DNA of 63,977 bases, the filler included, from Dirinaria sp. TL-2023a (Eukaryota), in assembly GCA_051941275.1 (NCBI GenBank). It is 3 parts of 3 records of this genome, joined end to end, with 100 filler letters (N's around TTAATTAATTAA, not from the genome) between each part and the next. Parts side by side here need not be neighbours in the genome. Positions count along the whole stretch, not along the records: positions 1 to 22,119 come from JAVEBF010000235.1; 2 more parts are not named here. One strand, given 5' to 3'. Below are positions 15,822 through 15,920 of this stretch, in pieces. The notes below the pieces were generated by a model. That model searched no databases and was not told where the DNA came from. It worked only from the letters and a program-made list of their open reading frames with translations. The translations under genes and the position numbers were made by a program. Position 1 is the stretch's first letter. Each line of letters starts with the position of its first letter.

Positions 15822-15920
15822 GGTTACCACGTAGCACGGTGGTGGCGTAGCGGCAGGACTCCGCGAAAGGCCTTGGCTTTCCATAGTCTAACCCCCACCC
15901 GATACGGCTGCACCATTTTT
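15822..15920 (+). ncRNA. putative Pol III structured ncRNA, copy 1 (divergent paralog), family unrecognised
   Basis: TATATATA at 15789-15796; A box TGGCGTAGCGG at 15843-15853; T5 at 15916-15920; B-box-like GTTTCGAATCC at 15943-15953; T7 at 15967-15973. Homologous to the copies at 20857-20954 and 22042-22119. The 5' and 3' ends can pair. Confidence 0.65.

What the first reader, a model, noticed from the sequence alone, without database searches (positions are those of the whole stretch)
15822..15920. Structure conserved between divergent RNA copies: closing stem plus two-hairpin junction with a variable arm
Seen by manual folding: the ends pair as GGT/ACC and CGTA/TACG, then GGTGG/CCACC in copy 1 versus GGTGA/TCACC in copy 2, a compensatory G-C to A-U change. 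A hairpin GCGG-loop-CCGC is kept with different loops (CAGGACT versus TAAAGT). A second hairpin is kept with unrelated sequence (GAAAG..CTTTC versus CTATCG-AGTT-CGATGG). Inference: selection acts on the RNA fold, not only on the promoter boxes, and the variable arm could carry copy-specific recognition.
Basis: partly seen in the sequence, partly recalled or inferred. Interest (0 to 1): 0.7.

Follow-up and report, generated by a model that had tools for sequence, protein, structure and literature searches.

The report
Multicopy tRNA-derived fungal small RNA
A fungus carries about thirty copies of a small gene that looks like a rebuilt glutamine tRNA gene whose RNA now keeps a different folded shape, which points to an undescribed RNA family, although no transcript has been seen.

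Summary
The element is real and larger than reported: at least 32 copies on 21 contigs of an ascomycete genome, three in this window. Each has a TATA at about -31, an internal A box, a T-run at about +94 and a B box beyond that T-run (yeast SNR6 layout). Single copies fold no better than shuffles. The 'unrelated variable arm' is wrong: intermediates link the arms, they come as a few subfamily types, and no antisense target was found. New here: the acceptor stem, the A box and the arm each match this genome's tRNA-Gln(CTG) best of 28 tRNA-like genes. The RNA reads as a tRNA-Gln that lost its anticodon arm, refolded, and now uses an outside B box. Copies spread with their flanks as DNA, without target-site duplications. 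No Rfam match, ortholog or expression data. The scan noted this family before on another piece of the same genome. Best reading: a Pol III RNA acting through bound protein, BC1/snaR-like.

The parts
15789..15805 (+). Copy 1 upstream TATA block, starting at -33
   Evidence: Sequence; found at -29 to -37 in 24 of 24 copies with upstream DNA; like words precede this genome's tRNA and 5S genes
15822..15920 (+). Copy 1 predicted RNA, 94 nt plus U tail
   Evidence: Start and end inferred from TATA spacing, the rise in conservation and the first T-run; no transcript seen
15822..15833 (+). 5' strands of the outer helices (GGT, CGTA), matching the tRNA-Gln acceptor 5' strand split by a 5-nt insert
15838..15842 (+). 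5' strand of the inner closing helix, pairing with 15895-15899; not present in tRNA-Gln; carries three of the swaps
15843..15853 (+). A box; its 3' end is also the 5' strand of the first hairpin (15850-15864)
   Evidence: 97% identity among copies; 10 of 11 match of the family consensus to tRNA-Gln
15865..15889 (+). Second hairpin ('variable arm'); conserved core TGG-CTTT-CCA at 15874-15883; remodelled tRNA-Gln variable loop and T arm
15903..15914 (+). 3' strands of the outer helices (TACG, ACC), 7 of 7 with the tRNA-Gln acceptor 3' strand once the 5-nt insert is set aside
15916..15920 (+). First T-run (T5), predicted Pol III terminator
   Evidence: T4-T8 in 26 of 26 copies, T5 or longer in 24
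15943..15953 (+). B box beyond the terminator (one mismatch), in the remains of a tRNA 3' half; second T-run at 15967-15973
20857..20954 (-). Copy 2 predicted RNA; TATA 20985-20976, A box 20933-20923, T-run 20861-20857
   Evidence: 98.8 bits
20843..20853 (-). Copy 2 downstream B box
22028..22119 (-). Copy 3, cut at its 5' end by the assembly gap; A box 22118-22108, T-run 22046-22042, B box 22038-22028

Best explanation
A multigene family of RNA polymerase III genes for a structured RNA of about 95 nt, descended from a tRNA-Gln gene. Shown in DNA: TATA, A box, T-run, downstream B box; copies spread by DNA duplication with their flanks; compensatory changes in helices that tRNA does not have. 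Inferred origin (about 0.8): the anticodon arm was deleted, the acceptor stem was split by two 5-nt inserts and lengthened by a new helix, the T arm refolded into a tetraloop hairpin, and the lost internal B box was replaced by one from another tRNA 3' end lying beyond the terminator. Inferred expression (about 0.7): TFIIIC spans A and B boxes as at yeast SNR6, Pol III starts at G+1 and stops at the first T-run. Inferred function (about 0.5): without anticodon, T loop or (in most copies) CCA it is not charged; it works by shape, as a ligand, decoy or scaffold for a protein that reads the conserved internal loops and junction, supplied in bulk by about 30 genes, as BC1 and snaR RNAs do in mammals.
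For: 32 copies on 21 contigs. Promoter layout in 26 of 26 full copies, B box with at most one mismatch in 25 of 26, 0-35 nt after the T-run. Identity: TATA block 85%, spacer 47%, transcript 83%, B box 85%, after it 52%. Same-branch swaps 4-5 versus 0.42-0.54; 4 of 6 structure pairs where a swap is possible versus 18 of 195 other column pairs. Paired columns change less than unpaired ones outside the A box, 0.74 versus 1.25 events per column. tRNA-Gln(CTG) ranks first of 28 in the acceptor (13 of 14, next 9), shares first place in the A box (10 of 11) and ranks first in the middle part (mean z 3.97, next 3.22). Untranscribed flanks shared over stretches of up to 316 bp at 74-86% and no target-site duplication (6.35 versus 6.61 nt control). 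The T stem around the outside B box has decayed, 62 of 104 cells.
Against: No transcript seen. No ortholog: 0 hits in one metagenome scan, and the 119 returned by a looser, truncated scan were chance-level (80 scored with the model, best 18.4 bits against 93-114 for full members; 122 matches screened by script). Single copies are no more stable than shuffles; the main helices average only 0.54-0.59 pair probability and a competing fold wins in 5 of 26 copies. Pairs with a two-sided change were 3 versus 1.7 in the column shuffle (26 of 500 as high) and further pair types were not above it. Three of the five swaps are G-C to A-U, the commonest change types here (C>T 22, G>A 13 of 92). Whole-length alignment separates Gln only narrowly from His and Gly (3.0, 2.66, 2.65) and the tRNA set is incomplete. 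No protein partner is identified.
Confidence: 0.5

Rival explanations
1. Selfish or neutral Pol III repeat: a tRNA-derived unit that multiplies by itself (SINE-like or by tandem duplication), the fold being kept only for transcript stability or copying, with no host function.
For: Dispersed and clustered copies, many at contig ends; two decayed copies with mostly G>A changes (6 of 8 and 5 of 6 substitutions); a decayed 5' half about 100 nt upstream in 7 of 23 copies; no ortholog found; fungal tRNA-derived SINEs occur at 10-160 copies (PMC5063351, passages).
Against: Copies carry upstream TATA, spacer and flanks that a retro-copy would not carry; no target-site duplications; the B box lies outside the predicted transcript, so an RNA copy ending at the first T-run would lose it; conservation follows the RNA, not the unit.
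Confidence: 0.22
2. Precursor of microRNA-like small RNAs: the long irregular stem is cut to about 20-25 nt guides, as for the Pol III-made milRNAs of Neurospora.
For: Major Neurospora milRNAs are Pol III products and one is tRNA-linked (PMC3547838, passages); the 5' 22 nt are the best conserved part outside the A box and the short stretch after the first hairpin, 89%.
Against: The stem has at most 5 stacked pairs between large loops and ends in a three-way junction; the 5' 13-mer has 21 non-family matches in the genome against 78 for the reversed control.
Confidence: 0.12
3. DNA-level function: the copies are kept as TFIIIC/TFIIIB binding sites (boundary or chromatin elements) and the RNA is a by-product whose pairing is left over from the tRNA parent.
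For: TATA, A and B boxes are well conserved; the two outer helices are inherited from the tRNA acceptor.
Against: Four of the five swaps lie in the inner closing helix and the second hairpin, which tRNA-Gln does not have; positions 1-22 and 77-104 are conserved outside any promoter box.
Confidence: 0.1
4. One reading: a guide RNA whose variable arm gives each copy its own target.
For: The arm and the first loop are the least conserved transcribed parts, 73% and 69%.
Against: Arms are shared by subfamilies and linked by intermediates; their changes keep the hairpin; no long antisense match. Short or G-U-rich pairing was not excluded.
Confidence: 0.06

Closest known systems
Nuclear tRNA-Gln(CTG) gene of this genome (L086)
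   Same: Acceptor strands (13 of 14), A box (10 of 11), variable loop and T-arm sequence in order; upstream TATA word
   Different: No anticodon arm, split and lengthened acceptor, no T loop, B box outside the RNA; 32 copies against one match for the tRNA gene; not called by ARAGORN or Rfam
SNR6 (U6 gene) of Saccharomyces cerevisiae, promoter layout only
   Same: Upstream TATA, internal A block, B block downstream of the coding region (PMC5855946, passages)
   Different: A-to-B distance mostly 80-115 nt rather than about 200; RNA unrelated to U6, which this genome has separately; multicopy
BC1 RNA of rodents
   Same: Pol III RNA derived from a tRNA whose 5' domain forms an extended stem-loop and acts through bound proteins (PMC6114260, passages)
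   Different: BC1 arose by retroposition of tRNA-Ala and has an A-rich tract; no homology implied; function here untested
snaR RNAs of great apes
   Same: Lineage-restricted multicopy Pol III RNA family spread mostly by segmental duplication, protein- and ribosome-bound (PMC3045588, abstract)
   Different: Alu-derived, not tRNA-derived; no homology
tRNA-related SINEs of filamentous fungi (AfuSINE2, MgSINE, Foxy)
   Same: tRNA-derived, Pol III boxes, tens of copies (PMC5063351, passages)
   Different: No target-site duplications, shared untranscribed flanks, B box beyond the terminator
Afu-364 of Aspergillus fumigatus
   Same: An unassigned RNA with a 100-nt northern band whose 18-nt clone maps to four loci (PMC2377427, section 16)
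   Different: Its sequence was not seen (supplements unreadable); a lead only, homology untested

Membership tests
tRNA | Cloverleaf with anticodon arm and T loop | tested here: not met
   ARAGORN 0 genes, Rfam 0 matches in the window; consensus fold has two hairpins, neither with a 7-nt anticodon or T loop
tRNA-derived RNA | Collinear homology to a tRNA | tested here: met
   Gln(CTG) first or joint first of 28 in three separate segments; narrow margin in whole-length alignment
SNR6-type Pol III gene layout | TATA upstream, A box inside, B box after the terminator | tested here: met
   24 of 24, 26 of 26 and 25 of 26 copies
SNR6-type Pol III gene layout | Transcription by Pol III, TFIIIC binding | not testable with these tools
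   Needs ChIP or transcription assay
SINE (tRNA-derived) | Target-site duplications | tested here: not met
   Longest shared flank word 6.35 nt versus 6.61 control, 23 copies; old insertions can lose them
SINE (tRNA-derived) | Copy begins at the transcript start and holds both boxes inside | tested here: not met
   Upstream and downstream flanks shared; B box beyond the T-run
SINE (tRNA-derived) | 3' tail shared with a LINE | not tested
   No LINE set was compared
5S rRNA, U6, other Rfam families | Match to the covariance model | tested here: not met
   No match on the copies at E up to 10 or 5; ordinary 5S and U6 exist elsewhere in the genome
Y RNA | Ro60 (TROVE) partner and Rfam match | tested here: not met
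   No TROVE match in this incomplete genome, control rang in 2 of 14; no Rfam match
Vault RNA | A and B boxes both inside the RNA (recalled) | tested here: not met
   B box is after the first T-run; no Rfam match
milRNA precursor | Precise small RNA from one arm, Dicer/Argonaute link | not testable with these tools
   Needs small-RNA sequencing
Antisense guide RNA (snoRNA-like) | Box motifs and 10 nt or more complementarity above chance to rRNA or snRNA | tested here: not met
   Longest match 5-10 nt, within shuffles, 6 copies against partial rDNA, 5S, U6; rRNA only partly held, U1-U5 not tested
Hammerhead ribozyme | CUGANGA and GAAA core at the junction (recalled) | tested here: not met
   Junction reads UGGYGUA and GAA; no Rfam match
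BC1/snaR-like RNP RNA (works like) | Stable RNA bound by specific proteins | not testable with these tools
   Needs expression and pull-down data

The most novel reading that the evidence does not exclude
A tRNA-Gln gene was rebuilt into a new structured RNA, moved its B box outside the transcript so that the T arm was free to refold, and was amplified to about 30 genes, making it one of the main Pol III products of this fungus and a regulator that acts through a dedicated protein: a fungal counterpart of BC1 or snaR, and one of several tRNA-scaffold RNAs in this genome.
Probability: 0.35. Interest if true: 0.8.

Novelty: new variant of a known kind. Interest (0 to 1): 0.6.

Why it matters
Known fungal Pol III products are few. 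A 30-gene family with a selected, non-tRNA fold would add an abundant RNA class, and its copies record how a tRNA turns into a new RNA: deletion of the anticodon arm, refolding of the T arm once an outside B box takes over. It is directly testable with one northern blot. It remains a one-genome observation without expression data.

Tried and rejected
Rfam at gathering and E-value thresholds, ARAGORN: nothing on the copies. Sequencing runs: no RNA holder listed, so no reads were laid. Further members: 8 non-family A-box matches plus 2 odd tRNA-like genes, and 21 of 21 non-family matches to the 5' word, were looked at and none is a member. Fungi_SRP search found nothing, which is uninformative. 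An SRP-Alu-like fold (5' hairpin, UGUAG) was considered: the G>A change at column 22 breaks that hairpin without compensation in 7 copies and the UGU is changed in 4. A tRNA-like end with encoded CCA: only 9 of 26 end in ACCA. Sm site or spliceosomal intron: the needed bases are not kept across subfamilies (read). The two odd tRNA-like genes as parents: best for A box plus tail but 3 of 14 in the acceptor and z below 1 in the middle part. Second tRNA-Gln gene: not found among 20 matches, of which 8 besides the known gene were read. Protein look-ups served only for context. Literature: ten searches showed no description of this family; the library lacks most subscription papers.

Full report
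Setting. The window is a join of contigs; places 1-22119 are contig C235 of a 27.7-Mb assembly. Its genes are those of a filamentous ascomycete; the only named relative among the best 120 hits of the neighbouring DUF1688 protein is a lichen-fungus MAG at 69%. The finding lies between genes, about 2.9 kb after the DUF1688 frame.

Observation. Two DNA searches of the genome gave 23 and 24 matches, which reduce to 32 copies on 21 contigs: 26 full, 4 cut by contig ends, 2 cut and decayed. This is a lower bound; later pattern searches added none. Seven copies lie in one 17.7-kb cluster and there are tandem pairs 307-346 bp apart.

Gene anatomy. In the 26 full copies a TATA-like word starts 29-37 nt upstream (24 of 24 with upstream DNA), an A box starts near +22, a T-run of 4-8 follows at +92 to +110, and a B box lies 0-35 nt after it (19 exact, 6 with one mismatch, 1 decayed), followed by a second T-run. 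The genome's tRNA and 5S genes have like upstream words. Mean identity is 85% in the TATA block, 47% in the spacer, 83% in the transcribed part, 85% in the B box and 52% after it. This is the layout of yeast SNR6 (PMC5855946, passages). The T stem around the outside B box pairs in only 62 of 104 cells, so I read it as a DNA element in a decaying tRNA end; a read-through form is not excluded.

Fold. For 16 core pairs 97.1% of 415 cells pair, against 37-54% for slid partners; cells with two-sided change are 11 against 2.7 in shuffles, but pairs with such a change are only 3 against 1.7 (26 of 500). To count events I built a tree from upstream, transcript and tail columns, after moving one gap to put the arm in register, and mapped changes. 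Over 19 pairs there are 4 strict or 5 lenient same-branch swaps; random placement of the same events gives 0.42-0.54 (P 0.0002-0.00075 strict). Swaps occur in 4 of 6 structure pairs where one is possible and in 18 of 195 other column pairs. Caveats: three pairs of the arm were chosen after seeing the data, the tree includes the tested columns, gene conversion is not modelled, and all copies are paralogues. Thermodynamics adds nothing: no copy is below z -2 and a competing fold wins in 5 of 26.

The arm. It is not unrelated between copies. There are 13 variants in 26 copies, in three or four types. No antisense match above shuffles was found to partial rDNA, 5S or U6, and searches of the genome with two arm types at three mismatches returned family members and one chance-level hit.

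Origin. I compared the family with 28 nuclear tRNA-like genes, being the 44 Rfam matches less 15 on the mitochondrial-type contig and 1 bacterial-looking gene; the set is incomplete. The two outer helices, fixed beforehand by the consensus fold, match the acceptor of tRNA-Gln(CTG) at 13 of 14 positions, next best 9; the two strands are not independent. The A box matches at 10 of 11, tied with one odd gene. The middle part alone again ranks Gln first, mean z 3.97 against 3.22, and aligns in order with its variable loop and T arm. Whole-length alignment ranks Gln first by a small margin. So the RNA reads as tRNA-Gln without its anticodon arm, with two 5-nt inserts in the acceptor, a new inner helix and a refolded T arm. 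The tails resemble other tRNA 3' ends: L091 overall and L093 for copy 1's subfamily. A Neurospora tRNA primer in PMC3547838 (passage) shares 15 nt with copy 2's A-box region.

Spread. Untranscribed flanks are shared between copies over up to 316 bp at 74-86%, also across subfamilies; there are no target-site duplications; a decayed 5' half lies about 100 nt upstream in 7 of 23 copies. Two copies carry mostly G>A changes, as repeat-induced mutation would give (the mechanism is inferred). This is duplication as DNA with turnover, not retroposition.

How it most likely works. Shown: promoter signals, copy number, covariation, tRNA ancestry. Inferred: TFIIIC and TFIIIB recruit Pol III, giving a 95-nt RNA with a U tail; it forms an irregular rod ending in a three-way junction; lacking anticodon and T loop it is not charged; invariant unpaired bases (positions 5-8 and the junction) suggest a protein-binding surface. 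I put 0.5 on a functional protein-binding RNA, 0.22 on a selfish or neutral repeat, 0.12 on a milRNA precursor, 0.10 on a DNA-level role and 0.06 on copy-specific guides.

Comparison with what is known. No Rfam family matches. It fails the tests for tRNA, SINE, Y RNA, vault RNA and guide snoRNA. It works most like BC1 (PMC6114260, passages) and snaR (PMC3045588, abstract), without homology. The passages I saw of two fungal RNA screens describe mostly single-copy RNAs and nothing like this (PMC8216456, passages and section 17; PMC5640933, passages); their figures were not seen. PMC9757828 (passages) added nothing. Afu-364 (PMC2377427, section 16) is an open lead; its supplements could not be read and may bear on novelty. 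Ten literature searches showed no description of the family. No ortholog was found.

Earlier notes of this scan. A report on a seven-copy cluster in this genome, which fits contig C287, reached the same gene model, and other notes describe further orphan Pol III-type genes here.

Verdict. Real, undescribed as far as searched, with fair evidence for a selected fold and a traceable origin, but confined to one genome and without expression data. New variant of a known kind; interest 0.6.

Noticed in passing
L484:1378-1518 minus strand (G000:C32): A tRNA-Pro(AGG) gene with a 52-nt stretch in its D loop that begins GT, has a branch-site-like word and ends CAG, besides an ordinary 17-nt anticodon intron; without the stretch ARAGORN draws a clean cloverleaf. 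Possibly a spliceosomal-type intron in a tRNA gene.
   Followed up: partly
L490:1501-1650 plus strand (G000:C390): Another gene with TATA-like word, tRNA-like head, closing stem, T-run near +145 and a B-box-like word further down; unrelated in sequence to this family.
   Followed up: no
L088:94-201 (+) and L090:98-195 (-): Two tRNA-like genes with shared acceptor, D and T arms but unrelated structured inserts in place of the anticodon arm; their A box equals or nearly equals the family's.
   Followed up: partly
window 17795-17882 (+): Sub-threshold match to SNORD35 (22.1 bits, gathering 36, E 0.016 in a 500-nt scan) with the guide stretch well matched; perhaps the fungal counterpart of this C/D snoRNA.
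   Followed up: partly
about 95-107 nt upstream of copies C104, C1111a, C1507b, C287d, C295, C66, C88: Decayed copy of the RNA's 5' half, so the duplicated unit once held two genes or a gene and a half.
   Followed up: partly
L045:1-72 (-) and L046:1532-1628 (+): Two decayed family copies with mostly G>A changes.
   Followed up: yes
L444 and L445; L076: Two different rDNA contigs (81-92% alike in conserved parts) and a bacterial-looking tRNA-Leu contig: the assembly holds DNA of other organisms. Different subfamilies share contigs C235, C1507 and C287, so the family is not a mix of genomes.
   Followed up: partly
window 40191-40313, 58767-58959, 51254-51707: Inverted repeats; the first two have related arms containing TTAGGG and may be miniature DNA transposons.
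   Followed up: no
window 22120-22219 and 44295-44394: N runs with a TTAATTAATTAA linker: artificial joins between contigs.
   Followed up: yes
window 20857-20823 (-) and like places in several copies: The first T-run plus two bases can pair with the end of the tail after the B box, closing a hairpin around it in several copies; untested, relevant only if Pol III reads through.
   Followed up: partly
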